NCBI GenBank assembly: GCA_002633005.1
Contig: NMRA01000184.1
Span: forward strand, 3,255 to 67,254
Direction: 5' to 3'
Length of the DNA stretch: 64,000 nt
Origin: Phoronis australis
Taxonomy: Eukaryota > Animalia > Phoronida
A program made the position numbers and the translations under genes. Positions 1-53,166 of the stretch are shown here, piece after piece. Position 1 is the first letter of the stretch; each line of letters starts with the position of its first letter. Under the pieces are notes generated by a model. It had not been told where the DNA came from. It made no database searches and saw only the letters and a program-made list of their open reading frames with translations.

Positions 1-2810
1 TTTTTTTTTATTTTTCTTGCTCTTAAAAGTAAGTCCTGGCGCTCTTTCAGGGGCGAGAAGCTCTAACGGAAAATCTTACATTAAAAGGTCGCAATCGTAA
101 TTCCTATATGTACCTACAACATTGAACAGTGTTAGAATAGTTTTCTTCAGGAGTTGTTAAAAGTACGTTGTGACGACTATAGTGGTTTTGACCGGATTCG
201 CTGGTACTCGCAGTAGAGTTATGCTTGCTGACACCACGTAAGTATGTTGAAACGAACAGCAATGTGTGCGCGTGTTGGTCGTGTAGCTGTTTGAATTAAG
301 CGAGTATCCTCGCAGTGAAGTAGTAGAAAGTCAGGCAATGCATGATTTCAGTGATGTTTTGGTATGCGTATTGAAGGAATTGAAGTTACATAGATAAACA
401 CAATGGTCAAAAGTGAAAAAAATTGCTAGAATTCAACAACACTTCAACAGTTGTCAAAAATTCTTGTAATTTTCGTAATAATAAAGGTAAAAAATCTGAA
501 GTGAATGCTTTTGTCTTCGCCAAAAACTTTGAGTGTTGAACCAGACATTAACCTTCAGGTACCGCCTTTCTCGCTTAATTTTACAATTGATTCATAATGT
601 CCCACCAGGCAATGCTCTGGTAGTAAGTGATCAAAAATGCAACAGTTATGATTAGTCGGTTATCGGATAACACCAAAGTCAATTTGGCCAGCGAGTTTCG
701 TACAATTGAACCGACTGACAGAGAACATTCAGAATTTTTGAGACGAGTTCAATCGCAACATTGCAATTTTATCGAAGTCCATGGCTTTCACTGGTACGTT
801 TCTTTCACAGTGAGTGGTGAGCAACAAAATGCCACTTAGGTTTTAAAAAATTATCTGAAATTAGCTGTTATAGGGGAACAGAAACAATAATGTGCGGTTA
901 TATGCATCATTTCACAGTGCTGGTGGCTGGTGGTGCTGTGAAGCATGCCCACACACAGCGGGGTATGCTACGAGCGCGAACGCACCTCCAACAGGGATTT
1001 GGAGTCCGCCTTAGCAAGCCGATTTTAATTCATATTACTTGTACTTTTTCAATTGTCTCCGTTATGCCTTTTTACTAAAAATACTTTTCGCTGAAAATGA
1101 AAGGTTGTCAACTGTCGGTAAACAACTCGTGAATTACATGTAAATTACTATATATTGTTAAATTGTTAGGGTCATTTATGAAATCTAACTAGCGGTTTTC
1201 GAATGGTAAAGCGGGGCCGCAAGCGGTTAGCGATCCTTTGCTCATTTTTACGGATAAAATTCAATCCGTAGACGATCTTAGAAGACGATTTTTGACATGT
1301 CAAAAATTGCCTCTCTCTTTACGGGATCTTTACGAGTGTCAGCGAGTTGTTGCGTTTAGTGACACGTTGTAAACGGATGCTTGCGATTGGAAAATCCGTA
1401 GGCGGCACTAAAATGAGAGTCAAGAAGCCCTAGCCCAAGAAACTGCCTTGAACACTGCCTCTTGCCACATCCACAAAAATCGAATATTTTTACCTTTGTT
1501 CATTTTCAGTGATCGATATTTTAGGCGAACGCGTAATAAAAACACGTCCTAACGCCGCGTTAAGTATGAGATTTTCCATGTGAGGGGAGTAGTATAGATC
1601 GACGATTGCGTCAGATCTTGCACTATGGGTTTGGTCCGCTTCCTTCTGAGCTTTGCACCCCCAAGTCACATGCTTGGTACATGCATGAGAAAGAACGTCA
1701 AGTGTCTCCCCACCTCCTCTCCGACACTTACTACAGAGGTTAATATTTTCGGGTGCAAACGGCTGTGTGTTTGCCCCGTGATATTTGCAACCAGTTGCAT
1801 GACCGTGGTAACTATTTACGGTTCAGGCGATTCCAAGTTACCAGAGGCCGGGTTTCAAATGAACTCAAAGCCAGGGTAGCCGAAGAAGGAAGCGGGATTC
1901 TGGGGTCATTTTCCTCCCCATAACCTCCGGGGTTACAGCGATCACAACTCCCACAGAAATTCGTTAAACGCAGTTTATGCCACTCTTAATTCAATCCACA
2001 TTCAATTCGGTGCATGTCACAATCAAGCCAACCACGGACGATCGTCACCGGCCTATCAGCATGCCAACGCCACCTAGCTGTGTCGCATGAAATCCAGAGA
2101 AATAACCTCGCTTGCCTTTGTTTCTCACTGTTTGGTCTTCAACTCGTTTGACAAGAGCTGACTCAGGATGTGTACATTGAAATCTACAACAAGGAAGAAT
2201 TCGGACTTTTATCATTAGTTGCATATTAAATCCCTCTTTAGCTGGCTAAAAACGAAAACTGAATTAAGACTTTTACTCCTATACAATCGGCTCCATGATA
2301 TTCTTTACCGTGATAGGATTCTATTTGTTTTGCTATCACTTTGAATTCTTAATTTCGGGGTTGGCCAATTCCAGTAAACTCCAATTAAGCGTTTTCTTGA
2401 GTCGACGTACTTCGTTGTAACGAAAATAGAATCCTTGGTCACATTTGTTTTAGGCCAAAACATGAGCACGAACTTTAAAATTAGCGCTTATAAGTAAACA
2501 AAGACATATTGATCCGACGACTCGGTTTATTCACTCTAAATCATTCTCACGGGAAATAGAATCCTATCATTGTAATGAACATTATGAGACCAATTTAATG
2601 AAAGTAAACGGGCTAATGCCTGTTTAGCTTGCTAAATAGCCGCCAAATGCAGAATTAAGTCTATGCTCAACAGTGCACATTGTTACTCATTCGTCCTAGA
2701 CCGGCAGAGTCTAGTGTAAGTAGGCTCTCCGATAATAGACTACTTGCGTGCTTCAAACTTAGCAAACAAGTGGAACAAAATCGCCATCTTGTTGCATAAC
2801 ATCACACAAG
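1..2810. repeat. Left arm of ~2.8 kb inverted duplication (partner ~30955-33732); may extend beyond window start
   Basis: Sequence is the reverse complement of ~30955-33732 throughout. ORFs 627-839, 890-1078 and 1625-1879 (+) recur as 32931-33143, 32671-32898 and 31886-32140 (-) with few substitutions. There is a 36-bp indel near 574-610. Confidence 0.97.
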
Positions 2811-2949
2811 ACCTTGTACCCCTGCACGGCGGAAATCCAGCATGACGAGGTCTTACAAACCTCAGGCGCATCCCTGCTGCGCAGTGACACTGACAGATCC
2901 ACCTTGGTTCTTACTTCGCAAAAGTACTGTTGATATTCTGTCACAATTC

Positions 2950-3241
2950 AGGATTCCCTGCAAGATCTGTATGGTGGTTGCTGGAGTAGCTTGGTGTGCG
3001 AGGGGGAAGGAAGAAAGCTGCAGTGAGAAGACTGGGCGAGACAGCTGAGAAGACATCTTGTTGGCTGTGGTACCGTCGGAATGAAGGAAGTTGGAGGCCT
3101 CAGTGATGCACAGTGGGTTGGCCGCCACTGTGGACCCACCAGTGGAGACCGTTCTGGTTTAGGGTCGAAACGAGTCGAGGAAGCTGGATGCCATCTGACG
3201 ACATCAAGCTACGCCTCCAACTAGTTAGTGTGCGGCGGGTA
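2950..3241 (+). repeat. 5' copy of ~291 bp terminal direct repeat (ORF C-terminus plus 3'UTR) of the Hero-like element
   Basis: Matches 6730-7020 with 7 differences by manual count (6 substitutions, 1 indel). Confidence 0.95.
3147..3205 (+). ncRNA. Putative strand-swapped hammerhead-like ribozyme, 5' copy
   Basis: GACCGU-U / GAAACGAGUC (stem III, 6 bp with 1 bulge), GAAA at 3167-3170 and CUGACGA at 3195-3201. The first stem-I pair is mismatched (C.U) in this copy. Confidence 0.4.
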
Positions 3242-3516
3242 GAAGAGAATCCTGGTTTAGCTGTTACGAAGAAGGGGCGACAAGACGTCAGACTGCATAG
3301 AAGCCTGACAACTATTGAGGCAGATAACATCACTGTAAGTACACACTTCGACATTTCAAGACTTTCAGGAAAGACTGGATGGCAACTGGGGAAGACCAGT
3401 GACGCTGGAGAGACAGTTGACCCCCAGGAAAGACTGGATTGGGGCAGGCAGGGCCAGCACCCCGGCCTGCAGCTCCGGTTATAGGAGCACCCATTCTCAC
3501 GCTACGTCAAACCAAA

Positions 3517-6500
3517 ATGAGGCATACCCCCAGAGTCTCCCGAGAGGGGGGGGGAGAATGAGAGACTCACAACGGCGGATAACACGGAAACGACTTTGCA
3601 ACGACCAAGAACTTTTAAACAGTTGACACTGACAGGAGGTGTTGTGGAAGGAGCAGTATGCAGTTGTGAAAAGGTGTGCAAGAACATCCGTGACTTACGT
3701 GTCCACCGATCAAGATCGCGGTGTGGTTATCAGGAGAATCAAGAGCAACGCGCAGAGGATCCCTCTTGTGAGACTTGGAGGTACCCAGACAGGATGAACC
3801 CCACAGTGCTGGGAGTCTCCAAGCCGATGAGCCTTCAGATAACGACCCTGTGTTCCTGGGAGAGGACACGTCAGGGCAAGGCAGACCTCCACCACGCCCA
3901 AGAAGGAAGAGAGTGAAATGGCCAAAGATGACGGAAGAAGCAGCATGGAAGGCTTTTGATGGGGATGTGCACAACATCATGAAGACAACTTTGATGGGCA
4001 GCGTAGAGAAGAAGATTGAGAGTTTCACCACAATCATTTACAACGTGGCTTTAGAGCGGTTTGGTGCACAGGAAGAGCGTACGAGAGCACCACGGCAGGA
4101 AGTTCCGAGAGGCAACAGACGGGAACGGCGCATCAAGGATATACGAACTGAACTAAGATCACTTGGGAAGGCTTTCCGCAAAGCCCAGGAGCACGAGAAG
4201 GCCGGGCTGCAGTGGCTCAGAGATGACTTACGGTATGAGCTCAGACGCCTGCGGAATGCAGAGAGGTTACGTCGAGCCAAGAAGGAAAGAGCTAAGCGAA
4301 GGTCTCAGTTTGTCAAGGACCCCTTCAGATTTACAAAGACCTTACTGGGGGAAGAGAGATCAGGCGAGTTACAGTCAAGCAAAGAGGCAATATAGCAACA
4401 TCTTAACGCAGCTCATGGAGACGACAGACGAGATGTGCCCCTCGGAGTGTGTTAGAGAGTGGAGGCTGTTGATAGGCCAGAGAGTGAATTAGACATGAAA
4501 GAACATACGTGGAAGGAACTGCTGCAGGTGGTTAAGAAAGCTCGATCGGGTTCAGCCCCAGGTCCAAGTGGCATCCCGTACAAGACCTACAAGAAGTGTC
4601 CCTTGCTGCTAAGGCAGCTGTGGCTGATTTTAAGAACAGTATGGAGAAAGGGCAAGATACCAACTGGCTGGAAGGTCGCAGAGGGGTGCTTTGTGCCCAA
4701 GGAGAAGGATGCTGCTGCAATTGACCAGTTTAGAACAATATCACTGCTGAGTGTAGAAGGGAAGAAGTTCTTTGGGATCCTTGCTCTTAGACAACAAGTA
4801 CATAGACACATCTGTCCAGAAAGGAGGAATTCCTGGTTTCTCAGGCTGTGTTGAACATACGAGTGTCTTGAGCCAGCTCATTAGGGAAGCCAAGTCGAAG
4901 AGGAAAGACCTGACGTGTGTGTGGCTGGACTTAGCCAATGCCTACGGTTCCATACCCCACCAGCTGATCAACATAGCATTAGAGTACTATCACGTTCCGG
5001 GGCATATCAGCGGCATGTTAACAGATTATTTTCGAGGTATCCAGTTGAGGTTTACTGCAGGTGCCATCACTACAGACTGGATCAAGCTGGAAAGAGGTAT
5101 AATAACCGGATGTACCATCTCTCCTACTCTGTTCATCATGGGGATGAATTTTCTGATAAAGGCCGGAGAAAGGGAATGTAGGGGTCCGAGGCTACAGTCT
5201 GGTATCGTGGTGCCTGTAATTAGAGCATTTATGGATGACTTGACAATAATTACGGTGACGCATGTGGAAGCTCGGTGGGTTTTGGCAGCACTAGATGAAG
5301 TTGCAACGTGGGCTTGTATGAAGTTTAAACCCAGGAAGTCGAGACTTTTGATAATGAGAGGTGGGAAAGTGGTCAACAGGTTTACCTTGACCATTCAAGG
5401 CGAAGAAATTCCATCAATTGTTAACAACCCCCTCAAGTGCCTGGGTAAATGGTACGATGATCTCCTGTGCGACAAGAACAACATCAAGCAGATGGAGACC
5501 CAGGTGACGGGGTGGTTGAAGAGAATAGAGAAAAGCGGTCTTCCTGGCAAGTACAAGGCATGGATTTACCAGCACGGGCTGTTACCTCGAGCAACGTGGG
5601 GTCTTATGCTGTATGACATCCCGATATCGGCAGTAGAGTGCCTGGAGAGAACAGTAAGCAAGTGGCTGAGGAAGTGGTTGGGAGTCCCAAGAAGCTTCAC
5701 ACAGGTTGGTCTTTATAGCAGAACAGCAGAGCTTCAGCTGCCTCTAGCGTCAATCACGGAGGAGTTTAAAGTAGGGAAGTGCAGGCTGGTTCTCACATTA
5801 CGCGACTCTAGAGATCCAAAGGTGAGGGATGCTGGTGTCATGACAAGATCAGGGAGACGGTGGTCAGCAGACACATCTGTGAGTCAGGCGGAGAGTTTGT
5901 TACAGATCAGAGATATAATTGGTAGCACCTGCGTAGGACGCCAGGGGTTGGGGACATCCCAGTTCCAACAGTGGGAGAAGGCGAGTGAGAGGCAGCGGAG
6001 GGAGATGGTCCAAGCTGAGGTGAGAGCAGCAGAGGAGGAAGCCCGTAAAGCCAAGGCAGTCCAACTAAGCCAGCAGGGAGCATGGACCAGGTGGAATCTT
6101 CCAGAGAGGAAGATATCGTGGGCAGACGTTTGGAGTATGGAGCCGATGCGTGTCCAGTTTTTACTTCGCTCGGTTTACGACGTGTTACCATCGCCTGCAA
6201 ACCTTCTTCGCTGGGGCCTAGTGGATGACCCTGCCTGCCAGTTGTGTGGAGGAAGAGGTACATTGGCCCACATCTTATCAGGGTGCAAGATGGCACTGCA
6301 GCACGGCCGATACAGATGGCGCCACGACCAAGTACTGAAGACCCTTGCAGACGTCATAGATGGAGAGCGTAAGACAAGAGTAACTCGGCCTAGGGCAAGC
6401 AGACAGCACATACAATTCGTCAGGGAAGGTGAGATACGGAAGAAGTCACGTCTGCAGTCTTGCATCATGGATGGAGTAAGCTGGGAAATGAGAGTAGATC

Positions 6501-6886
6501 TGGGAAGAAAGCTTGTGTTCCCGAGTATTGTGGAAACATCACTGCGGCCTGACATCATTCTGTGGTCGGATATTCATCAATTTATAGTGATTATAGAGCT
6601 TACGGTGCCTTGGGAGGAAGGATGCGAAGAGGCCCATGACAGGAAGTTATCTAAGTATAGCGAGCTGGCGGAGACATGCAGAGCTCGAGGCTGGCAAACT
6701 TGGTTGTTTCCTGTAGAGGTGGGATATAGAGGATTCCCTGCAAGATCTGTATGGTGGTTGCTGGAGAAGCTTGGTGTGCGAGGGGGAAGGAAGAAAGCTG
6801 CAGTGAGAAGACTGGGCGAGACAGATGAGAGGACATTTTGTTGGCTGTGGTACCGTCGGAATGAAGGAAGTTGGAGGCCTCAGTGA
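3517..6886 (+). pseudogene. Disrupted single ORF (ZF-RT-CCHC-RLE) of the Hero-like element
   Basis: Probable ATG at 3517. Frameshift in the G9 run (3546-3554), frameshift near 3775, in-frame TAG at 4393 and 4453, and a deletion/frameshift near 4785. The 704-aa segment 4772-6886 is open to TGA. Confidence 0.85.
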
Positions 6887-7020
6887 TGCACAGTGGGTTG
6901 GCCGCCACTGTGGACCCACCAGTGGAGCCGTTATGGTTTAGGGTCGAAACGAGTCGAGGAAGCTGGATGCCATCTGACGACATCAAGCTACGCCTCCAAC
7001 TAGTTAGTGTACGGCGGGTA
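6730..7020 (+). repeat. 3' copy of terminal direct repeat
   Basis: Matches 2950-3241; similarity stops abruptly after CGGCGGGTA. No poly(A) tail or TSD seen. Confidence 0.95.
6927..6984 (+). ncRNA. Putative strand-swapped hammerhead-like ribozyme, 3' copy
   Basis: GUU triplet 6930-6932, stem I AUGGU (6933-6937) with GCCAU (6969-6973), CUGACGA 6974-6980, GAAA 6946-6949, stem III ACG-G with C-CGU. Stem II is weak and has a C.C closing mismatch. Confidence 0.5.
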
Positions 7021-7281
7021 TCCGTTCCGGTAAATTCTACACACGTACCGAAGATGTTCTGTACCCGGTGACCAAGATCGTTATCCTGGACCTAGGTCTG
7101 GGTGTGACGTTTGTGGACTTTTGGCTAGCGGATATGGGAATTGGTCCGCGGGTTTGCTGTGGCGTCATTTACCCGACAAAATGGTAAAATAAGAACCGAC
7201 AGTTCGTTAAAATAAGCTATTTGCAGTTTACCCGAAAAAGCATTCGGCGTCCTCATTGGTGCATTTTTGTTACGTCACGGC

Positions 7282-7463
7282 TTGTCGGTCAAATAATCGG
7301 ATATTTGCTATTCACCCGACAAATGTTTCAACGTATCCTTGTCGGTCAAATAGTGAGATTTTTTGCTCTTCTCCCGCCGCACTTTCAGCGATTTCACTGA
7401 TAAACATTATCGTCACATCTTGTAGGCCAAAAAATCTGATTTTTGTTATTCACCCGACAAACT
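7282..7463. repeat. Three imperfect ~42 bp hairpin-forming repeats (TTGTCGG...CCGACAA), probable MITE remnant
   Basis: Units at ~7282, ~7339 (degenerate) and ~7420 share TTGTCGGTCAAATA and ATTCACCCGACAAA motifs. Confidence 0.55.
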
Positions 7464-8264
7464 TTCATGGGTCATAACTTCAGAGTAACATTTTATAGCC
7501 CAAATGAAGAGGTTGCAAATTTGTTTTCTTTTTCCCGATGAGAAAAATTAAGATGTCTATGAGGGTGAGGCATTAGCAGCTAATCAGAATGATTAATAAT
7601 ATTTTAAAATTCGTCCGGGTGATATTTTAACTTATAAAAAAGCTAAAGCTGTTGCTTTCAAGACAGAACCAAAGCAGGCAAACGGATACACCCATTGTAC
7701 ACGTCACTCGATTACATTAAACTGAATTTTCATGAGCATCAGTAAATGATACAGTCAACTGCGTCTTTCTTAGAAGTCGAAGTAATCAAAGTAAGCACGA
7801 TTATCTATAAATTGTCACTTCAATTATTCGACTTCGACAACGTCGTGAGCTTTGTACAGCTACGTTTATTACATCTAGAATCGGCCATTTCATGCCACTC
7901 ACGGTGACAGTGAAAAATATTTTCTCTGTGAAATGTCGCAAACGTTTATCGGTTGAATAGCAAAATTCGACTTACAGGTATTTGGACTACAAGGTTGTAC
8001 AGACCAATGAACTCCTTGAAGCACATATCTAATTCAATACACGTTTCCGTTCATAGATTGCACAAAATCTTGAACATCATCGGGGCTGAGCAATTCATAG
8101 TAGCAAGACAGTTCGACATAACTTTCAACAACCCTCTGAGCTATAACTCACAGAATTAGGTCATGTGTTCGCTGAAAACTCATGTGACCGAGTGTTTTTT
8201 GCACTATTTCAATTTAGATGGCGGACAATGAGGCGCCACCTCAGTATTTTACGATATTGTAAAA

Positions 8265-9497
8265 CTACAGGTACCTTCTGTGTGCAGCTGTCTTGTATCT
8301 TAACCCTAGTTTAGCCGACACTGTGTCACCTTTGAAGCTGTATGTTAATGGTATGGGAGGCATAAACAATGGCCGATTGGTGTGTGGGTACACTACCGCC
8401 TGACAACTCTCATCTTGGAACACGCATCCTGACGGGCAGTTGGCGATGCACGGTAGGCAGCCACACTTTGTGTTGATGTAAGCAACACGCTGCTGCACAC
8501 TCGGGTCATAGTTTTTTACCCGTTCTTTCCAGTCTTTTTCAATGAAGTTATCGAAGCGCTCTTTTGGAACTGATTGGAACGGCCACGTGAAAGATGGCTT
8601 TAATGGAAGGGTTGCTTTATCATACGGACGAGAGGCGGGGTCAGTGGTCGGCCAATTTTCAAAAGAGTTTTTGTTATTCATAGGCATGTTTTCTTGATTT
8701 GTCAAATCATTACGTTGATACTCGTTCGGCAAGATGTTGCGACTGTCTTGACAACAACTGTTATAGTCAATGGAAGCTCCCTCTGGTGCCATAGCGTGAA
8801 CATTGCTGTACGGGCAATCGTGAGGACAGCGTACGTTCTCTTTGGCTAGCAAAGGTTGATATGTCGCGCTAATATACTTGTTGCAATGATCTTGAAGGAC
8901 GTTTCTATGGAGGTTATTGCACTTGATGTAACACCCGACACCTTGACAGTTATATCCTCGTTCTTTACAGATGCACCCGCATAAGGAGTTTCCGCAGTTG
9001 CACGTGACTGGCTTCAAACAGCAGCAATCGCTGCGCAGTGCTGGGCACCGACTGTTGTGCGCACATGAACACACCCCATTAACTTTTACACAGTCGATTT
9101 CTTTTTTGCACGATTCAATGCCTTTGTTACATATACATCGCCCGAAAACATCACCAAGACAACGACATTCATCCTGGATACGTTTTGGGGATGGTTCAGC
9201 GCCACCCACTTCGTCAGTTAGTCCGAATTTTCCTAAAGCATCAATTTGTTTCGTTTCCCTTTTTGGTATTTGGTTTGTTGAATGGGAAATGTAATCTGAG
9301 TTGTATGTAGAGTATTTGTAGCGGTTATCGTGAATACTTTGCAATGCCTTAAGCGTTTCATCACTCAGTGTTCCTGAAAGTGGACCGGTAAATAGAATTT
9401 AGACAGGTATGATGAATATTTTCAGACTATTTCTTAATTACACAATAGTTAACAAACTTTGTTTACCTCTGGTGAAACGCTCCGGTTCAACCACCAT
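8265..9497 (-). CDS. Uncharacterised cysteine-rich protein, ~379 aa, at least 2 exons (9497-9467, 9373-8265)
   Basis: The 359-codon ORF is extended upstream by a phase-1 GT-AG intron (donor G|GTAAAC at 9466, acceptor TTTCAG| at 9374), giving N-terminus MVVEPERFTRGTLSDETLK. It has a dense CxC/CCC block. A possible donor AG|GTACCT just before the stop leaves the 3' end uncertain. Confidence 0.75.
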
Positions 9498-10024
9498 AAA
9501 TAATGTACTAGCGCCTTTCTTTTTCGTAAGAGTTCTGTGAATAAAATAGCAACGTTATTCAGAAAATAGGCCTACGTCAAAGATTTGAAAATCGTGAACG
9601 CAACCCATTTATTCCCATAAAGCCCGGTTTCCACCCTCCAATTGTTCGTCTGCGACTTCGTGTATGGCTTTTGAATCACTGTCTACACACACACACACGC
9701 ACACAAGCACACACACCCCTCACTCCCGAGTGATGCGTATGAATACTGCGTTCGTAGTTTGAAAAGCCTGATAAAAATACCCAACTACATGCACACTATG
9801 ACTACGTCATGACGACCGAATACTAAGTTGCGTGTAGAAAATCAGATTGTGTTTAAACAGAACTTCTTCACGTGTTCACGCGTGATTACATGTTACAATT
9901 TTTCGTACATGGTAATCGGAGTTTGTAGATAGTGGTCCAAAAGTCGAATACTACTTTTCCTGAGTCAATGGAAAATCGAAACAAAATCGGACAAACACTA
10001 CTTTTAATCAGCAGAAGAATATTA

Positions 10025-10597
10025 CTGTCTTCACACAGCCTACCCTAGAACAACTCGCACTAGTGCAACGTTCCCCCACCTTTGAGTGGAGCGTCCACAC
10101 ACACGTACATTTCCGATAACTACGGGCAGATCCAGGATTTTGAGTTAGGTGGAGAGCAGGGCAGACTATTAGCCAGGATTTTGGAATCTGGGAAAATTTT
10201 GGGGGAGCCATGGCCCTTTGTCCCCCCCCCCTTAAATCTGCCACTGACGTCTGTATGTAACCGCAGCTAATAATTACTTCCGCCTTGCCCCTGCTTTGCC
10301 GCTGTCACACAGGAATTAAAAGGGACACTAGTTACCCTAGAACAAGTTACCCAACCTCGATAAGGTGCAGTAAGTTGTCACAAGTGGGGTAAGTTGCACT
10401 AGTTTGAATAACGACCATATAGCCTCCAAACCCAGCGACAATTCGTTCTAGGAGTAACTTGTTCTTGGATTAGTCCGTGTATGGACGGCAACAAGGTGGA
10501 GTAAGTTGTCACTAGTTAGCGTCCACACAGCATTCAAACCTAGCGACAATTCGTTCCAGGAGTAACTTGTTCTAGGGTAAATATGTGTGTGGACGGC
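10025..10597. mobile_element. PIF/Harbinger-like MITE with internal duplications and a nested CAGTGGC-type MITE (10124-10246)
   Basis: Inverted ends CACAC..TACCCTAGAACAA / TTGTTCTAGGGTA..GTGTGGACGGC and a duplicated AGCGACAATTCGTTC..GGAGTAACTTGTTCT block. The nested element ends CCCCCCTTAAATCTGCCACTG and shares GATCCAGGATTTTGAGTTAGG with ~49452. Confidence 0.6.
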
Positions 10598-13500
10598 ACT
10601 ATAAACCCGTGAATGCCCGTCTAAACACTTCGATTAGTTGCAGTTGAAAGTCGATCAATTGAAGTGTGTCGACAGAACTTCTAACCGAAGACTGTACATT
10701 CATGTTTCATTTATTATAAGGAAACATGGATGTATAGTCTGTTTGGCGAGTTGACAGCCGTGTGCCAGTGTTTCAGTTGTACTCCGCGTGAAGCTACATT
10801 AATGCAAATGTATGTATGTCTGACATTTAGCCTTCTAGAATATACCAGTTGTAAATCACTATCGATAATAGACACAGTGCATGTATCCCAGACTTAGTCG
10901 TGTGAGCATACAACAAGCTGCACAGACAAACTTGCTTGCGCGCGCTCGCACACACACACACTCACGCACACACCCGCATATCTTTACATACGTGTAATCA
11001 AAATTTAGTTTGCTATCGATCGAAACAATCTTGACCACTAGGGAACCATTTACCTTTGGTCTGGTTTTGTTCGAATCAGGGCGCTGTCGCTGAAAACATA
11101 TGATTCTGATAAGGAACTCAGATATGAAGCTAGGAATCCTTTCCACTTAGGTAAGTGTCAAAACATTTGGTAATTTAGCCATCGGTCTGGACTTAAAAAT
11201 TGCATTGTCGTGATAGCATAGGTTTGAAAATCTAAGTTGAATAAAAAAATAACCTGTGTTTGAACTGAAGTAGTCACATTTTTTAAGGCTGGGACACCCT
11301 TATATGATTTGCTGATGCATGGTTACTCGTAAATGCCCTGGGATCAGAGCCTAATATCCCAAATCAAACTCGAAACTTTACCTATCAATCCACATCGGTA
11401 TACTGATTCGTAAGTTCAATCGAACCGCGTTTTGAGCCCAGAAAAAACATACTGGCGTATTTTTGATTACTAAGGATGTTTAAAGTAAGTTCCGTTCTTA
11501 CTAGATCAATATAGATCCTGGCGTAAACAAATTGTCTCCTGTCCTCAGAGTTTCGGTGTTTTCTTTTTTGGAATGCTGTGGCGTGCTTCTGGAAGCATAA
11601 AATTTTAAAGATAACCTGTCCACATCTTCACGTCTTGAAGTTCCATAAAACAAAGCAAAGCAGAATTTCTAATTAAACGAATAGCAGTTACCGAAGATAA
11701 AGACTGAAATAAAGTGTACAGATTATTACAAGATGAATGTCGATACAAAATTGTAAAAATAATAGAAAGAGCGTCGTAACTGTTGACAAAGGGCAAATGT
11801 TAGAAACGTTGGGGTTTCATTGAAATTTTATATCGACGTTCGTCCTGTTATGTTTTGAATTCTTTTATTCAGTTTTTCAAGTGTTTCCTAGTAGTGTTCT
11901 TTAATACAAGATGGTGAAGGTTAGTTTTGGACATCCAAGTAATGCACCGACGAATTTTAGTGATAAAGAACTTCACCTATCGCTTAAGTTGTATAGTAAA
12001 AAACCGCCTTTGTGGAAAGGTTTATCTTTTACACGGTGTATTTATTTCAGTAACAAATAACGACTAAGAAGCTTCACTGCTTTCGAAACTGATGGGTAGA
12101 AACGATGAAAACGTGTACGTTAAATTGTATTCGAAGGAGATGTTTTTACACGTGTGTGAATATGCTCGTGATAAAGAACGAGACGCCACCCATTCGTTTT
12201 GAGAATGTACTGAACCTTGTTACACCCCATTTTGGTTAAAACAGGTATCAAATACTACTAGATCACATAAGTCTGGGTGACAATTCAATGTTACGTAGCC
12301 CTTTTAAACACGCTTAACTTTCAGTGGCTGTGCTTGAAAACTTCGAAATCGTCCAGCGTGATTAACGCTCTAAAAGAGTTCATGGACCACTGGCTGAAAA
12401 CATTTCCAACCAGGGGTTACAGTTTGTCGCACAAAGAACGAATGCGTCGGTTCTGGATGAAGTCACTAAAACACTGTTGGTTTTCCTTATGATTTCGATA
12501 TTTCAATTTTGACAGTAGTTGCCAAAAACAGACAGTTATGAGTCTTCTTTAACCAAACGCTTCAGCACTGACAGAAATTTCGAAGAGAGTGTTTCTCACA
12601 AAAAAAAGGAGATTCATTTAATCAAGGTTTCCTTAGTAACCATGTAATTGTGATTTGTCACCATACTGATAGCTCCGAGTTTCGATTTTTAGGTTACAGT
12701 AGCATCAAATCTGTCATAACTCACAGCTACTTTTGAAATCTGAATTGAAATACTTCAATAGTCAATAATGATTAGCCACGATGCCAATCAAAATGGTCTT
12801 GCTGCAGGGTTATGAGTCAAGGGGCAATATGGTTAAATCAATGCTTCAAAGGGATGCATACATTATGGACATCTTAGGATAAGACCATATGTGTTTGGGA
12901 GTGTGAGTTCCGAACAACGACATTTTCCCCTGCTTGGTGTAGTTCTTTCTTATAGAAACTGATTACCACACTATATCCGTGATGTTATCCATGTGCCGGA
13001 CCAGACAACAGAGTAACGATTGCGTAATCATCTATGACGTTTCTTTCCCAAATACGCATTCGACAGACAAATGAAAACGGTGTTACCAACCTTTCATACA
13101 TACGCACGCGCTCACACTCACGTGCAAGAATTTGTTTACAAGATTGAAAAACCATTAATAATACGAGTTTTGTTGTTGGGAAAAATTAATTCTAGAGATA
13201 ACTATAAAGTAACCCGGGAACCAGTATCATTTTTGTAGAATGGTGCAAACGATGGTTTCTTTCCTAATGCTATTTTAACTTCATTTACAAGGTTAGCTTC
13301 CAACACACTTGAGAGTAAACGCTGAATTTTCAATATTTTTTGAAAAATGAATAGGGTTTATTTCACGCAACACCCTTAATTTATGAAGTAAATTTACATT
13401 TATTTTAGGAAAAAATTTGTCAAGGGCCGTTGACAGGATATTTTTGGGGGTGCAATTTGTGAAATTTAGATCGTCTAAATGCACCTGAAAATATGCTCTT

Positions 13501-16466: not shown

Positions 16467-17580
16467 ATAAATGCTGAAATAAGTTTGATTTACCTGTAAG
16501 ATCCTAAGATTTTATAAAATACCTGTAGCTGTCTAAAAAACATGATTCTTGCCGTGATATGATTCTATTTCCGTTACCAACAAGAGCATCGAAACTATCA
16601 GCGACTTATTTTCGGGTTAGACAACCCAAACATTTTCGAATAACGCACTCACTTGTGGCCTTGAGTTCGGTAACGGGAATAAAATCCTATCACGGTAAGG
16701 ATTTTATGAGAGTTATAGACCTAATTCGATTTTTGTTTTCAGCCAGTTGGGAGGAATGCAGCTTCAAATGTTTCCTGGGTTAAAAATTTAAGAGATTTTT
16801 AAAAGAACCATTAACAAATGTGAAAATTAACTAAACGGAATAAAATCTAAAAAGGTGGACCCTATTATGAAATTGCAATATAAAAACCAACGTATCGAGC
16901 TTCATTCTTTGTAAAGTGGTTTTACAGACCGCTCGAAACGTTCAGTTTTTATTAGAGTGTTATGTCAACTTAAAATCGTTGTTGGTTTATATAGTTTTAC
17001 TGGATATTCAAAAATAATTGCGTGAACAAGGTGCCATTTTTGGTCGTGGAAAAAGGAAATGGAAATGTAAGTCCGAACAAGACTCGCACTGGAAATAAAT
17101 TAGTGCGCTGTGCATTTGTTGGTTTGAGGCATTTATTTTGTTGAGCCCCTATCATCAAGCTTACATGTACATTAATATTTACATTTTCGAACACATGCAG
17201 GCAATCAATTATTTAAAAAGCTGTATATTCGTATTCCGTGATAACGAAATATGGATTTAAACTAATCACCATAAATAGTCTCAATTTAATCCGTTGTTAA
17301 AACAGATGTAAAGGACCGTCAGCTTGTCACTGCTTGAGGTTAGGCTCTTCAAGTTGACTTGTCACGGCGTTGCTCTATTCAACAAGCATGGTCTCGTGCA
17401 ATAACGAACTCTCCGTTCTTTGCAAGACCATACATTGCCTCTCACCTAAATAAGGACCAAAATGAAACCAATTTTGTAACGATACATGGTCTAAACCAGA
17501 GGTAAGTCACTACGACGGAACGCGGATTTGCTGCTGCTTTAGCCATTCGTCTTTCTTCCATTTCAGACATTCCCGTAAAT

Positions 17581-20500
17581 ATGGATGAACATGAAACGAA
17601 AGACTTGATGAGTGATAAGAGGATCGTTCCTAAAGTTTACAAAAAGCGATGGCTCATTCTGTTCTTATTCGCTACGTATTCGATGACAAACGCTTACCAA
17701 TGGATACATCTAAACATAATTGGTAATGTGATTTTCCGTTATTATAACGAAAGTTTGCCCGGTGACAACAGCTATCAGAAGCAAGTGGCTATCGACTGGT
17801 TGTCGATGGTGTACATGTTGGCCTATGTGCCTCTCATCTTCCCAGCCACGTGGTTGCTTGACAGGAAGGGTCTAAGAATCATTGGTATCCTCGGTTCTCT
17901 GCTCAATTGTCTTGGGGCGTGGTTAAAATGCGCCTCCGTTGCACAAGATCGTTTTTGGCTATTAATGCTGTCGCAGACCATTTGCGCCATTGCACAGATT
18001 TTCATCCTGGGGATGCCAGCGAGGTTAGCTGCCGTCTGGTTCGGACTTAATGAGGTCTCCACCGCGACGGCGATCGGCGTTTTTGGCAATTCTGTGAGTA
18101 TTTCATAATCGATGTCAATATTTTTAGGATGTGTCCATTCCTATTGCATATGAATACATCTAGGCCTACGCAATTGTTTTTAAGCACATGATGGCGTTCT
18201 TGCCCTTTTTTAAAATAGAAATTACTCGTCTTCTCACAGGTTGGAAATGGACTTGGATTCCTCATCCCACCTGAAGTCGTGCCTAACTCAGAAGACATCG
18301 ATGACGTGGGTTACAATTTAAGTATCTTATTCTACGGGGGCGCGGGCATCACGACAGCGCTTTTCATTCTCGTCTTAATCGGTAAACTGCTGCATTTTAA
18401 AACTTCATTAAAATTCATCAGGTTTGCTATCGATAGTATCATTTTTTCAGACAGTCGCCGTTTCTCCCCACAGCAATAGCATTTCATGTCGTTATGATAA
18501 GGGTTGGTCCTCGTTTCGTATTAAGGTCGAGCATACATAGGTTTAGCCTAGAGTTTGTGTTACATGTATCTGAATGCAGCAGCTTTTCGTCTCGCGGTTG
18601 GGAACAAAATTCGACTCTCACTCACATGTTGTATAATATTTCGAGGATTCCTTTATTATTTTTATTTTTCGTGTTATTTTTATTCGCAAATTGATTTGCT
18701 TTGAAAGTTAAAGCAGAAGTTGTTAATTAGTTTTCAGAAAACAACCCCCTGTCCCGCCAAGTGCGTCAATGGCTGCAGTTGTCGAGGCAGCGGCTGAAGA
18801 AAACTATCTGGAGTCGCTGAAACGATTAGCGAGAAACCGTGGCTTTCTTATTTTGACACTCACTTATGGTAAGTGAAACAAAGCACGTGAAGATAAGCGT
18901 AATGCTTTGCAATTCAGCAACGTCTACTCTTGTAAACGTCCACGTAACTAGAGACCATCATGCGAGCCCGCATAAAAGATATAAAATCGGCGATGCCCGT
19001 AGCCTCATTTGAGCTACCACGACACAAGAACTTCGTAATACAATGACCACTGCTTCGTGAAACTGCGCGTGCTTTCGGAGGCTGCAAATTTGTACGAATA
19101 TGAAACAATTTGGAGGCTGTTAAATACGCCTATTGTACCGACATTCACAGTGCAGTCATGGAAAATTATCTGTCAGTGGTAACTTGCCTTATTTCAGAAC
19201 ATGAATAATTTCTTTTGGTAGTTAAAAATACATACAAAACTTGCCATTGAAATTCACGAAATCATGTCCCAGCTCCTAACATATGCTCAACCCATGTTTG
19301 GGTGCAGATTGCCATATTCTCTTTCTGGACGTCCAGCGTCCGCTGTTGTATCCCCTTGCAGGATTTTAGCAGATGTGTTCCAATGAAACTGGCGACAGAA
19401 GACCACGCATTTTGGACCGATCAGACTACCGTTGTGCCCTCTAGTGGCAATTTTAGTTTTTTACGTTTCCTCTGTAGCTTCGAAATAGCTTGATGGATTT
19501 TCGTAAAATTTGGCAAATAGGTTTTTATTAGTGGGACAACTATGCATTTCCATTTTTGGACAGGTTCTACGTATTTTCCATCACGTATTGACCTTTTTGA
19601 TTTTCTTTCCTCCTCTTTATTTATTGAACCATTAAAGGGATTATCATGAATATTAGTAGACGTATTCCTTCAGAGAACCGTGGCTGACGTTGATTTTCAG
19701 AGGGATTTGACTGCTTTGGCGCCCCCTAATGGCAATTTTATTTTTTACGTCCGTTGCGTTTAGAATAGCTGGGTAAGGGTGAAATGAAATTTTAGAAGTA
19801 CGCCTTTTCTGAACTTGAACTTCAAATGAATGGAAATATGTTTTGTACTTAAGTTACTGTTTTCCTGCGGTTTGTGAACGCTACCCCCGCCCACTCCCTC
19901 TCCCCATGTAGCCAAACTTCTTCGGAAGACCCACTCCGTTCTGCTGCCTTATCACCAGCTCGTATCACGCGGGTCAGTAACAGATTCTTCAAATCCAGTC
20001 TTCTGTCCTTTACAAGGAATCAGCATGGCTTAGTGTATATGAAGTCAGTTTTGTTTTTTATTTACAGGCATCAACACAGGGGCCTTTTATTCTGTTAGTA
20101 CGCTTCTTAATCCCATGGTTCTGGACCATTTTCCAGTAAGTAAATATCGCAACTGTCCTCAAGTAAACTTGCATTTCCTTTTGCTTATTTGTTAGAAAAA
20201 CCTGAATCAAAACTTGATCACATATCTCAAAAACAATTTTTTTGGCGGGGATTTTTCCGTTACATCAAAGAAGCTTGTAAGTCAAAAAGGATTCAAAAAA
20301 TCTACAGCCAGCTGTAACAAAAATTTGATTCAATCGCTAGCTTTATCTTAATTTCAAGTCAATGTCCAAATAGATGCCAACACAACAATGATTTTTAAGT
20401 CTTGATCAGTTTTACCAATAGACATGATTAGCATATCGTCGCGTTTAAAATTCGAAGTTGCAATCGTTACATAAATCAAATTATCGGCGCAGAATCTTGC

Positions 20501-38440: not shown

Positions 38441-40413
38441 TGGATTGCCAATCGATCAAATTTGTTTTTAAGTTCTTGTTTTGCTATTTTATTTGTCGGA
38501 GTTTTGTTTATAATTAATAAATCAAAACAACCAACTGTTCGTTTTAATGACATGACAAAAGAACATGAAGTAGTCTTCGTCATTTTGCCAGGATAAGCCA
38601 TAGCATGTTATCAGGTTTCTATTGAAGAACTAGCAAAAATTGACAGAAATTCACCTTTTTAACGTTTCACCAATATTTTCATTTTATTTCCTTATTAGCA
38701 AGAGTGTCGATGTCAGCGTGACTCCACTAACACACTTAACGCCTAACCTAACTGGCAGAAGGTAAAATTCAGTGGAAGAAATAGCAGCAGAGAGTAGCCT
38801 TCTTAAAAAGTCTTATAGGAGGTGTCTCGCGGTCGTGAAAGCTTAGGAATGAGACCGTTTGAGAGGTGGAAGACATCTAGAAGGAACAATCGTCCTGCAA
38901 TGGTGTTTGATAAAGTGCGTCACCAAGCAGTGGGCTTGAGGAAGCAGGTGCCTGGACGGCGTGGGAAGGAGTTCACAGCATACGTGTCACCGCGAATGAC
39001 CTTATTTCTTGAGAACAGTACAGGTCAGCGACCGAAATACACACTGGCCCTGTGGCTGCATTCGCTGGATGACGTGATCCCAAGTTCGACAATCTAAAAA
39101 TGAGGGTAATGATAGAAGATGACTCTTGCGGAAGTCGCGGGAGGCGCTGCACTTTGCAACGTGTGTTTTGTCATATTGTAAAACACCCTTAACAAAAGGG
39201 AGACATTANNNNNNNNNNNNNNNNNNNNNNNNNNNNNNNNNNNNNNNNNNNNNNNNNNNNNNNNNNNNNNNNNNNNNNNNNNNNNNNNNNNNNNNNNNNN
39301 NNNNNNNNNNNNNNNNNNNNNNNNNNNNNNNNNNNNNNNNNNNNNNNNNNNNNNNNNNNNNNNNNNNNNNNNNNNNNNNNNNNNNNNNNNNNNNNNNNNN
39401 NNNNNNNNNNNNNNNNNNNNNNNNNNNNNNNNNNNNNNNNNNNNNNNNNNNNNNNNNNNNNNNNNNNNNNNNNNNNNNNNNNNNNNNNNNNNNNNNNNNN
39501 NNNNNNNNNNNNNNNNNNNNNNNNNNNNNNNNNNNNNNNNNNNNNNNNNNNNNNNNNNNNNNNNNNNNNNNNNNNNNNNNNNNNNNNNNNNNNNNNNNNN
39601 NNNNNNNNNNNNNNNNNNNNNNNNNNNNNNNNNNNNNNNNNNNNNNNNNNNNNNNNNNNNNNNNNNNNNNNNNNNNNNNNNNNNNNNNNNNNNNNNNNNN
39701 NNNNNNNNNNNNNNNNNNNNNNNNNNNNNNNNNNNNNNNNNNNNNNNNNNNNNNNNNNNNNNNNNNNNNNNNNNNNNNNNNNNNNNNNNNNNNNNNNNNN
39801 NNNNNNNNNNNNNNNNNNNNNNNNNNNNNNNNNNNNNNNNNNNNNNNNNNNNNNNNNNNNNNNNNNNNNNNNNNNNNNNNNNNNNNNNNNNNNNNNNNNN
39901 NNNNNNNNNNNNNNNNNNNNNNNNNNNNNNNNNNNNNNNNNNNNNNNNNNNNNNNNNNNNNNNNNNNNNNNNNAGCGGTACCAATCAGAGTAACGTGAGA
40001 TCAATGCTTCCATTGAATACCTCGCATCGCTGCAGTTAGTCAACTTTTTATAGATAAAGCTGATACTTCAACAGAAGCAAGGTCATGATTCGTAGAATTT
40101 ATTGGTGAATTAGCCTGTTATGGCCACGGACTCTCCGGGACCCACAAAAAAGCTAGACCGTGTAGCCATGGCCTTTGATGAATCTTTCACCGTTAACACC
40201 CCTGGATACATCATCGGCTGGGTTATCACTCGTGTCCACATTATTTCCATTGCTCTGGCTAGGAGTATTCACGGATCGTTTGCACTCTGATAGCTACGAA
40301 TGGATGTTAGGGCCACAACAATTAATTGTTTGACGAAAATACGTCATAGTTAATGACGCTTGAGTCGCTTGTTGTATAGACGTTCTCTTCTGAGACAGAC
40401 GTTTAGATTTATC

Positions 40414-50555: not shown

Positions 50556-53166
50556 GATGAGTAACCATGGTTGGCGCCCCCCAATTTGGTGAATTGGGCA
50601 AAAAAGTCCGTCTCAGCGAAACAAAGAGACCAAGTAAAGGAGACGAAAGTCCACAAAGCCCACAGGAATTCAGCGCGGATGCACAACAATCCGTAAGCCT
50701 GAACCTAGTGGCCCCGTTTTTTAGTCCTCGTGGATTTTTTTCAGTAAAAGGTTCGCATACCCAAAATTTCGAGCCCCCCTATATTTTAGGCTGGGTGCGC
50801 TCATGAATAGCAGCTCCATTTGGTGACGAATTAGAGTGTGATCCAAGAGACAGATAAGGAGTTAGTTGGTTCCCAACCAACAAGCAATAGCTACCCTACC
50901 TGGTGGTGGAAACAAGATTAGTGCAGACTGAGAGTGAGTTAGTTGCAACTAATAGCTGCCCCACTTGGTGGTGTAACAAAATCTGGGTAGACTGACAGGG
51001 AGTTAGTTCGTTCCAACAACCAATAGAACAAAATGAGTATACATTTGCTAAGCGTAGAAAACATGTGGAATGAGAATGTTGGCTTCCCACCAATCTGTCA
51101 TGAATAGGTCACATGGCCATATTTTTAGTATAATTTACCATATGTTAGTTCACATAGTCAGGGTTTGTTTTGTTTGTGTAGTTTGTAGTGTAGCCACCAG
51201 GTGTCTCTTCTTGTAGTGTGTCTTGTGTGCCCCTATATTTCATTGAGCTTTTGTCTTTGACTCATTGTTATGGAGATGTATTCAGACTGGCCTTGAGTAT
51301 GGTGCACACCACCTGCATTAATTTTCTGACAGTCTTACGAGACGGATGTTAGGTTTGGGCAGCCACAGGCTTCACATTCTGTAAGTTGAAATTGTGTTAT
51401 TTCGTTTTCTGTTATACTGTGTGAATTTAACTAGAATTTGGTCAAAGAGATGCTTATTCTGTTAAGTCTGACTCAACTGTTAGTGTAGCTACTGTTAATA
51501 GGTTTTGCTGCTCAGCTGGAGTGGAATGTTACCCGGCATGCAGTGTTAGTTTGGTACTTTTGTTGTTCTTCTCAGTAACGTATAGAAGAAGCAAAGAACC
51601 AAGGTGTTTTCTTTAATTCGGATTGCCCGGCCTGTGCTGTCGTCACACCATATGATAAAGGCAAATTGATAGGAAAATATATCAATAACTTGATCAAAGT
51701 TTATTCGATATGAATGTCTTTGAGAAAACATAATTGCATATGAAGGAAATGTTCTATTTTAAGGTTATGTTAGACTTTACGAGAATTGACTGTCTGCGTA
51801 TTTAGCCAACTATCTACAGAACTACTGAGTTTATTTCAGTAAAAGATACATTTTTTGAAAGAAAAAAAGTTGTAGAGCTAGATTTTTGACTTTTTACCAA
51901 TTTGCCATAAATTGGATCACGTGACCGTGTATTGTTAATGACGTTTGGTAAGAAACGTAGTTGCATTGATAGTGAAACATGATCAGATTTTATTCGATAT
52001 AAATGATCAAGATATCTCAAAAACACGGTTACAGATTTGTAAGATAACATATCGGTATTGTTTTATGCGACTCCTTTTTCATGAGAATAATAAAAGTCAT
52101 ATATTTGATAGATCTTTGTGCAAAAGTTTAAAACTTTAAAAACAATTCGTAACATTGTTTTAGAGAACAGTGCATAAAATATAGTATCTTATTAAAGTTT
52201 CATATGAATTTGATTAACCGTTTATAAGATTTGTTGTTCAAAGTTAGCTAAATTTTGATGTTTTCCTGGAGTCTTACGTTATCTCGCACTCAGAATTGAC
52301 CTATTGCAAGCTCCGCCTCTTTGCGAAAAGTCACGTGATACCCGACAAACAAGATGTCCGAGGCAAATACGCAGTCTCTAAACGACGTTTCTGGTGGAAT
52401 CGATGGGTGCTTTTGCACTAAGCGAGAACGCTTCGACAAAGACAACACCTATGACAACTAACTGAATAGAAAATATAAATGGCAAACGTCGTTATGAAAT
52501 TGTAATAAAAACAATGTTTTGATCATCGCCCATTCTTAAAAAGTGTGACAGATTGTACGGAATGTTGAGTTTTTACCAACTTTAACTTGTTTTTTATAGT
52601 GAATACGATTTTACCTGATTTATAACAATAATGGTGTGAACAAGATGCAATTTGTGGGAATGGAGAAAAATGGAAATCCAAATGAGAGACAGAATATGAC
52701 GATTAGTGCACCGTGCATTCACCGTTTTAAAACCTTCACTCGAATGTGCGCTGAACCGCGATCGTCACAAGTACATTGATATCTACACTTACAAACTCGT
52801 GCATGCTATTAAACAATAAAGTAGCTGTTAACCCGTCTTCCTTGACAAAAAATAACCAGATTACTCCTTCATCAAAATAGATATGATTTCTGGGTTTGGA
52901 TAAATCTGGCAGTTTGTTATCGCTTGAGACAAGGCTCAAGAGTTGACTTTGTCACCGCGTCATTTGATTCGGCGAGTGGTTTCAAGCAATATCGAACCGT
53001 CAGTTCTTTGCAAGACCAAGCATTGCTTCCAACTGTGTAAGGAATAATCTGAGACCATGTATGTAGCGACACGTGTTCTAAATCAGAGGTTAGTTACTTT
53101 GACAGAACGTGGGTCTGTTATCCCTTTAATCATAGGTTTTTCTTTCGTTCAGACATTCCCTTAAAA

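What the first reader, a model, noticed from the sequence alone, without database searches (positions are those of the whole stretch)
6927..6984. Strand-swapped (pseudoknotted) hammerhead-like ribozyme in the 3'UTR of a Hero-like retrotransposon
Seen: all three hammerhead core strands are present, in the order [III'-GUU-I] (6927-6937), [II'-GAAA-III] (6941-6955), [I'-CUGACGA-II] (6969-6984). Stem I (AUGGU/GCCAU) and stem III (ACG-GU/GC-CGU; 6 bp in the 3147-3176 copy) pair exactly where the catalytic geometry needs them. Established: type I/II/III hammerheads are circular permutations of the order CUGANGA, GAAA, NUH. The order here is the reverse cycle, so it is none of the three types and standard descriptors would miss it. 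Inference: it may fold as a pseudoknot (stems I and II are spatial neighbours) or as a dimer, cleaving 3' of U6932 and U3153. Caveats: C.C mismatch at 10.1-11.1, short stems, a competing AGCUGGAUG/CAUCAAGCU hairpin, and the element is decayed.
Basis: partly seen in the sequence, partly recalled or inferred. Interest (0 to 1): 0.85.

Follow-up and report, generated by a model that had tools for sequence, protein, structure and literature searches.

The report
Four-way-junction hammerhead in retrotransposon tails
The tail of a widespread group of animal jumping genes carries a conserved RNA fold with all the catalytic letters of a hammerhead ribozyme, wired in an order not found in the papers searched, and it likely cuts the element's own RNA, which would help explain why these elements sit head to tail.

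Summary
The core order (cleavage strand, GAAA, CUGAnGA) is the published type SGC of Eckert et al. 2023 (PMC10085705), reported there only from metatranscriptomes. Here 67 of 79 related retrotransposon loci carry at least part of the motif, with the exact hammerhead signature. Instead the strand before GAAA pairs with an upstream strand (Pc), the strand after CUGAnGA pairs with another (Pa), and a hairpin joins them with no spacer: a four-way junction opened between A9 and stem II, which that paper assumed could not be split. An unguided covariation scan puts its top 14 pairs in these helices. A k-turn motif caps stem III. Cutting is untested; both window copies carry a private lesion. Likely role: cutting tandem read-through RNA to unit length, perhaps closing it into a circle. 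This scan reported the same motif before on other genomes.

The parts
6870..7000 (+). Whole predicted ribozyme, downstream copy (six helices: Pa, Pb, Pc, Pd, I, III)
6870..6888 (+). Pa 5' strand (outer 6870-6878 pairs with 6992-7000; inner 6884-6888, which contains the ORF stop codon, pairs with 6981-6985)
   Evidence: pair probabilities 0.39-1.0; covariation
6889..6912 (+). Pb hairpin, third arm of the four-way junction, 0 nt from Pa and from Pc
6913..6917 (+). Pc 5' strand; inferred to replace the 10.x strand of stem II (G6913 pairs with C6945, like the canonical G10.1-C11.1)
6919..6923 (+). Pd 5' strand (pairs with 6962-6966); positional equivalent of the stem I-stem II interaction helix of type SGC
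   Evidence: comparison
6925..6937 (+). k-turn GA, stem III 5' strand, U16.1 (6931), H17 (6932; predicted cut on its 3' side), stem I 5' strand (6933-6937). This copy lacks one A present in the upstream copy
6938..6960 (+). 3-nt linker, Pc 3' strand (6941-6945), GAAA (6946-6949), stem III 3' strand, 3-nt bulge and GA of the k-turn motif
6962..7000 (+). Pd 3' strand, stem I 3' strand (6969-6973), CUGAnGA (6974-6980), Pa 3' strand (6981-7000)
3090..3221 (+). Upstream copy of the same motif; predicted cut after 3153; intact stem III and k-turn motif but C at 3154 where 226 of 233 covering reads from the same species label show A
2950..3346 (+). 3' end of the preceding unit: last 50 codons of the ORF plus the full 3' UTR; read loose ends at 3339 and 3346 suggest the usual element end
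3347..3619 (+). 5' UTR region of the main unit with a conserved repeated motif (boundaries approximate)
3620..6886 (+). Decayed single ORF of a non-LTR retrotransposon: N-terminal zinc-finger-like part, RT, zinc knuckle, restriction-like endonuclease motifs; two frame changes and two stops in the 5' third, open from 4757

Best explanation
This is a conserved hammerhead-type RNA in the 3' UTR of a clade of RT-endonuclease retrotransposons, in which stem II is supplied by an upstream strand through a four-way junction, and it likely self-cleaves after position 6932 (3153 in the upstream copy). Shown by covariation: stems I and III, Pc, Pd, Pa and Pb, and conservation of every catalytic position. 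Inferred: Pc stacks under the G12.A9 and A13.G8 pairs as stem II does; Pa and Pb clamp the opened A9-10.1 step; the k-turn bends Pd back to tie stem I to Pc. Inferred role: elements lie head to tail, so a transcript running from one unit into the next holds two ribozymes 3.78 kb apart; cutting at both would release a unit-length, circularly permuted RNA whose ends stay paired and could be re-joined; priming reverse transcription at a fixed point about 90-190 nt downstream of the cut and running round the RNA would give the layout seen here (a 3' fragment, then a whole unit, no poly(A)). Odds: fold real 0.97; cuts in intact family members 0.8; circle as the template 0.45.
For: Core signature in 65 full-span hits: G5, A6, G8, A9, A13, A14 65/65; U16.1 64/65; H17 split C 22, U 21, A 21, G 1; N7 free (the profile was built from finder-selected rows, so partly circular). 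Top 14 of 6364 MI-APC pairs on a sequence-only alignment all fall in I, III, Pc, Pd, Pa. 87.5% of cells paired versus 61.7% shuffled and 37-43% slid; 25 of 28 pairs change on both sides. Zero-spacer junction with all 15 inner pairs in 19 of 37 families versus 12 of 1332 swapped and 1 of 1110 shuffled. First pair of Pc is G-C 28 or G-U 5 of 37. k-turn pattern with a 3-nt bulge in 24 of 37, other bulge lengths 1-3. All 71 profile hits on the sense strand. The 5' UTR motif follows a ribozyme-bearing 3' UTR in 13 of 15 loci where it was found. Type SGC, same core order, cleaves in vitro. A cut-ligate-circle route is proposed for Penelope-like elements.
Against: No cleavage assay exists. RNA reads show no pile-up of ends at the cut, and reads in both orientations span it (these come from diverged copies, strandedness not on record). 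No excess of changes at the cut among 19 close pairs: 2 seen, 2.2 expected. In L001 the two tandem 3' UTRs are only 74% alike, in L017 92%, which one pass round one circle would not give (assembly chimeras not excluded). 8 of 37 families fail the zero-spacer fit, and the loose fit also passes 35% of swapped controls. Relatedness inflates shuffle controls. For a Penelope-like element, cleavage was not needed for insertion in vitro. No 3D test of the junction was possible.
Confidence: 0.72

Rival explanations
1. The RNA cuts, but only to free a linear RNA from a read-through transcript (as R2 ribozymes do at the 5' end); the downstream copy stays uncut or is jumped by the RT, and tandems arise by new copies landing next to old ones or by template jumps, with no circle.
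For: Tandem neighbours of 74% and 92% identity; insertions keep an intact motif and end downstream of it; ribozymes liberating elements from co-transcripts are well described (passages).
Against: Tandem copies are 97.6-99% alike in the window, L002 and L021; the window's upstream fragment starts 202 nt before the cut, so its 5' end is not the cut site; junctions are seamless at the same point where solitary copies end (read by eye for L008/L077, L050/L076, L017, L021).
Confidence: 0.3
2. The fold is a non-cutting, hammerhead-derived structure bound by the element's protein for template recognition.
For: It sits where LINE proteins recognise their RNA (general knowledge); RNA reads span the site; a k-turn motif suggests protein binding (L7Ae-family binding is recalled knowledge).
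Against: Avoidance of G at H17 with free use of A, C and U, a free N7, and invariant G5, G8, A9 are the cleavage rules of hammerheads, kept across elements only 39-58% identical to the query in protein.
Confidence: 0.1
3. It is an ordinary type-SGC hammerhead (or a dimer) with stem II formed directly between the GAAA and CUGAnGA strands.
For: Core order, 3-nt linker in this copy and a fourth helix next to stem I match type SGC. Direct pairing is slightly above swaps (2.03 versus 1.83 of 4; 246 of 5000 permutations).
Against: 10.1-11.1 can pair in 5 of 37; 49.2% of cells paired, no better than slid registers of 34-55%; MI ranks 1079-5448; the published stem II rule fits 1-2 of 37; pair probability 0 in the window.
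Confidence: 0.03
4. Chance arrangement of short motifs in a decayed element.
For: Short stems; both window copies carry lesions; Rfam finds nothing.
Against: Conservation and covariation across 37 families at 57% mean identity; 0.003 expected per window.
Confidence: 0.005

Closest known systems
Type-SGC hammerhead ribozymes (HRIMA-1 and variant; Eckert, Friedrich, Weinberg and Weinberg 2023, PMC10085705)
   Same: Order of the three core strands; short linker from stem I to the strand before GAAA; an extra helix ending just before the 3' strand of stem I whose partner directly follows the stem II partner strand; multiple pseudoknots.
   Different: In type SGC the stem II partner and the interaction strand follow CUGAnGA; here that segment is moved to the 5' end and the break after A9 is held by Pa and Pb. 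The paper assumed block C cannot be interrupted and counted six permutations. Its SGC RNAs were found only in metatranscriptomes, none in genomes of known organisms. A k-turn motif is present here.
Type I, II and III hammerheads (Rfam models)
   Same: All catalytic core positions and the G10.1-C11.1-like closing pair.
   Different: Reverse block order and split stem II; no Rfam match in the window's first 12 kb at E up to 10 or in 10 loci at gathering score.
Hammerheads of Penelope-like elements and retrozymes
   Same: Hammerhead in a terminal repeat of a retroelement, tandem or partial-tandem layout, proposed circular RNA intermediate, internal start of reverse transcription (passages).
   Different: Those are mostly type I, in Penelope-like elements often minimal and dimeric, tied to GIY-YIG elements or non-autonomous; here the carrier encodes RT plus a restriction-like endonuclease.
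HDV-like ribozymes of R2, L1Tc and other non-LTR retrotransposons
   Same: Self-cleaving RNA that would free a LINE RNA from a longer transcript (passages).
   Different: Different ribozyme class, at the 5' end; here a hammerhead in the 3' UTR, upstream of the element's 3' end.
HERO clade retrotransposons, including the Tetraodon element recalled as Zebulon
   Same: Single ORF with RT, zinc knuckle and restriction-like endonuclease motifs; about 50% identity to a Tetraodon polyprotein (P0091), whose four closest loci (63-70%) all carry the motif.
   Different: No ribozyme was found described for this clade in the searches made. The names Zebulon and HERO for P0091, and Zebulon's tandem structure, are recalled; the paper was not held.

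Membership tests
Hammerhead ribozyme (class) | Core CUGAnGA, GAAA and UH conserved, N7 free, H17 not G | tested here: met
   (65 full-span hits)
Hammerhead ribozyme (class) | Stem I and stem III flank the core in the right register and covary | tested here: met
Hammerhead ribozyme (class) | A helix closes under G12, usually with R10.1-Y11.1 | tested here: met
   Pc: first pair G-C 28, G-U 5 of 37; its partner comes from upstream, and stacking as stem II is inferred
Hammerhead ribozyme (class) | Site-specific self-cleavage after H17 | not testable with these tools
   No assay possible; RNA reads gave no pile-up at the site
Type I, II, III hammerheads | Circular order CUGAnGA, GAAA, UH with a pseudoknot-free three-way junction | tested here: not met
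Type-SGC hammerhead | Block order S, G, C | tested here: met
Type-SGC hammerhead | Stem II formed by the strand directly after CUGAnGA (0-1 nt insert) and the strand before GAAA | tested here: not met
   (1-2 of 37 fit the published rule)
Type-SGC hammerhead | Fourth helix tying the far sides of stems I and II | tested here: met
   Pd: 6.24 pairs cognate versus 3.7 swapped, 0 of 5000 permutations; equivalence is positional
k-turn | Helix, 3-nt bulge, tandem G.A and A.G pairs, second helix | tested here: met
   24 of 37 families; 1-3 for other bulge lengths; the window's downstream copy does not fit; the consensus is recalled and the kink itself is untested
RLE-type non-LTR retrotransposon | RT followed by a cysteine-histidine knuckle and PD-(D/E)xK-like endonuclease motifs in one ORF | tested here: met
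   Pfam RVT_1 and weak zf-RVT; motifs read from the translation and invariant columns; no Pfam hit for the endonuclease
HERO clade | RT phylogeny groups with named HERO references | not tested
   No named reference sequences were held; assignment rests on similarity to P0091 and recall; clade names seen in passages

The most novel reading that the evidence does not exclude
A seventh natural hammerhead topology, outside the six thought possible: a circular permutation of type SGC opened inside the catalytic block and re-clamped by a perfect four-way junction, with a protein-binding k-turn, carried by an autonomous LINE clade across molluscs, lancelets and fish that retrotransposes from a ribozyme-made circular RNA, which is why it forms head-to-tail arrays without poly(A) tails.
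Probability: 0.4. Interest if true: 0.92.

Novelty: new variant of a known kind. Interest (0 to 1): 0.82.

Why it matters
It would extend the hammerhead fold beyond the six permutations counted in 2023, show the first non-circular form in animal genomes that these searches could find, and explain why descriptor and Rfam searches missed a ribozyme present in a widespread retrotransposon clade. It gives a direct bench test of how these elements make their RNA ends and tandem arrays, and a new ribozyme scaffold whose two halves stay paired after cutting.

Tried and rejected
Rfam: no hammerhead match in window 1-12000 or in 10 of 79 loci. Viral contigs: no relative. No own genome held, so other genomic copies could not be aligned. 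No RNA holder listed by the run search; three raw-read runs and one contig set were added by species label. Reads: no pile-up at the cut; the joint 6988 to 3268 is the same as 3209 to 3268, a 3' UTR variant, and is not counted as a tandem junction. A closer look at read variants inside the motif is not available, so within-species covariation is open. Direct stem II, with 0, 1 or 2 inserted bases: rejected. No target-site duplication seen by eye at 2949/7021, but the downstream copy is 3'-shortened. The Zebulon paper was not held.

Full report
Observation. The three hammerhead core strands are at the stated coordinates and in the stated order, and a second copy lies 3.78 kb upstream in a 291-nt duplicate that differs at 7 places. 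Stem I pairs 5 of 5 in the downstream copy; the upstream copy has the longer stem III (6 pairs with one bulged A) but a C.U mismatch at the first pair of stem I. A descriptor of both motifs plus stems I and III matched once in 300 simulated 128-kb sequences (the descriptor was set after seeing the site). Rfam finds no hammerhead here.

Setting. The motif begins at the stop codon of a decayed ORF (3620-6886; two frame changes and two stops in its 5' third) with an RT domain, a zinc knuckle and endonuclease-like motifs. A protein search listed 1006 relatives among the 7986 candidates scored; named ones among the 120 shown are from bivalves, lancelets and bony fish, among them a Tetraodon polyprotein at about 50% identity. 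That this protein is Zebulon and belongs to HERO is recalled, not tested.

Relatives. A finder using only the core motifs and stems I and III placed a core in 53 of 79 loci and in the window's downstream copy, not the upstream one. A profile built from 37 representatives gave 71 hits, all on the sense strand, in 65 of 79 loci and the window. Of the 14 loci without a hit, 2 have a core; 7 end within 141 nt of the protein match; 2 lose the ORF early; 1 breaks off about 10 nt after the predicted cut; 2 (L060, L068) have 501 and 308 nt of downstream DNA without the motif and look like L064, whose motif lies about 700 nt downstream (by eye), so their status is open.

Core. In 65 hits spanning all three strands: C3 63, U4 64, G5 65, A6 65, G8 65, A9 65, G12 60, A13 65, A14 65, A15.1 64, U16.1 64; N7 is free (37, 15, 10, 3) and H17 is C 22, U 21, A 21, G 1. 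This is the hammerhead cleavage rule set (established knowledge). The test is partly circular, because the profile came from rows that the finder chose with U16.1 and H17 not G.

Structure. After dropping 3 loci with under 12 nt past the core, 51 sequences fell into 37 groups below 80% identity (mean 57%). The strand after CUGAnGA instead finds a partner upstream (Pa), and so does the strand before GAAA (Pc), both 0 of 5000. Located independently, these partners are separated by a hairpin (Pb) with no spare base in most groups. A joint zero-spacer fit passes 29 of 37 loosely (but also 462 of 1332 swapped and 292 of 1110 shuffled controls) and 19 of 37 with all 15 inner pairs (12 of 1332 and 1 of 1110). 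A sixth helix, Pd, follows Pc and pairs with the strand before stem I (6.24 versus 3.7 pairs). On a sequence-only alignment the top 14 of 6364 column pairs by corrected mutual information all lie in I, III, Pc, Pd and Pa; the direct stem II pairs rank 1079 to 5448. Five helices together: 87.5% of 947 cells paired, 25 of 28 pairs with changes on both sides, against 61.7% shuffled and 37-43% slid; direct stem II 49.2%, inside its slid range. Shuffles ignore relatedness, so these are not probabilities.

How it would work. The first pair of Pc is G-C or G-U in 33 of 37, the polarity of the canonical pair 10.1-11.1, so Pc is inferred to be the functional stem II. In type SGC the stem II strand and then the interaction strand follow CUGAnGA; here the same two-strand segment (Pc then Pd) sits at the 5' end, and the broken A9-10.1 link is replaced by Pa and Pb. 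The RNA is thus a circular permutation of type SGC opened inside block C, which Eckert et al. assumed indivisible when they counted six permutations. Their search patterns demand stem II directly after CUGAUGA(U)G; 1 of 37 groups fits, 2 with N7 relaxed, which explains a miss in RefSeq. Cutting is inferred, not shown.

Role. The conserved 5' UTR motif was found in 15 loci; in 13 it directly follows a ribozyme-bearing 3' UTR, in 2 it follows other DNA, and the window has the same layout. Solitary copies end without poly(A) at the point where tandem copies continue into the next unit (by eye); in reads, loose ends at 3339 and 3346 mark the likely end for this family, so the window's downstream copy lacks about 105 nt. 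Since insertions keep the motif whole and the window's upstream fragment starts 202 nt before the cut, the template must be continuous across the cut: uncut, re-joined, or jumped exactly. I favour cutting of tandem read-through RNA to unit length, re-joining, and reverse transcription from an internal start, as proposed for Penelope-like elements (passages). Against: tandem neighbours of 74% (L001) and 92% (L017) identity, no excess change at the cut (2 versus 2.2 in 19 pairs), no read ends piling at the cut, and reads spanning it. About 18-19% of each raw run was read; the reads are mostly 85-99% alike, so they are other copies, on both strands, and say nothing on expression of this one. They do show A at 3154 in 111 of 114, 93 of 97 and 22 of 22 reads, so that lesion is rare among transcribed copies.

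Literature. PMC10085705: main text parts 1-5 of 8, term searches, supplement parts 1 and 8 of 42 and a term search; figures not seen. [quoted passage not shown] Passages only: PMC7650587, PMC11167929, PMC2684134, PMC13725137, PMC13580325, PMC4640811, PMC10162972, PMC6765202. Ten searches (listings only) found no paper joining HERO elements and a hammerhead, and 'type-SGC' occurred only in the 2023 paper. One paper mentions hammerhead variants 'containing additional helices'; I checked one of its three citations by passages and saw no such junction, one is the 2023 paper, one I did not identify. Subscription journals, Repbase Reports, the Zebulon paper, Fell et al. 2025 and bioRxiv supplements were not visible and may bear on novelty.

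Earlier notes. Eight notes of this scan describe the same motif in other genomes. They are unchecked AI notes and not support; my junction and circle ideas were written before that look-up, the k-turn came from it.

Verdict. A real, deeply conserved hammerhead-type RNA with a topology not found in the papers searched; it works like type SGC but fails its stem II criterion. New variant of a known kind; interest 0.82; cleavage and the circular intermediate await the bench.

Noticed in passing
window 3347-3450; L001:1687, L002:177, L004:1991, L005:2505, L007:2821, L019:2302, L021:128: The 5' UTR begins with a conserved, partly repeated motif with hairpin-like complementarity around a GAAA; it may be a promoter or a second RNA structure.
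   Followed up: partly
L001:1266-1611 versus 4990-5333: Two head-to-tail 3' UTRs only 74% alike, both with the full fold: tandem of different subfamilies, a template switch, or an assembly chimera.
   Followed up: partly
L017:1-90: This contig begins 2 nt after the predicted cut of an upstream copy; one case at a contig edge, could be chance.
   Followed up: no
L064:1958-2037, L067:2418-2488, L070:2230-2309, L035:2203-2296: The motif also occurs 370-700 nt downstream of the protein match, in loci with longer 3' regions, with the same junction visible in folds of L064 and L070.
   Followed up: partly
L003, L005, L008, L034, L054, L064, L070, just after Pa: A further short hairpin followed by a TGTA-containing motif precedes the element's 3' end; a candidate start signal for reverse transcription.
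   Followed up: no
window 7164-7461: Cluster of short direct repeats right after the shortened 3' end of the element, possibly another repeat element.
   Followed up: no
window 17506-18108 and 53053-53694: Two similar Major Facilitator Superfamily exons, suggesting duplicated transporter genes.
   Followed up: no
window 58039-58500: Weak DDE_3 transposase fragment on the minus strand next to an AT microsatellite.
   Followed up: no
window 10674-10753: Long hairpin with weak, sub-threshold matches to several microRNA precursor models.
   Followed up: no
window 8265-9398 (minus) and 39001-40000: A 377-codon open frame without a Pfam match, and a kilobase of only 11% GC with open frames in all six phases.
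   Followed up: no
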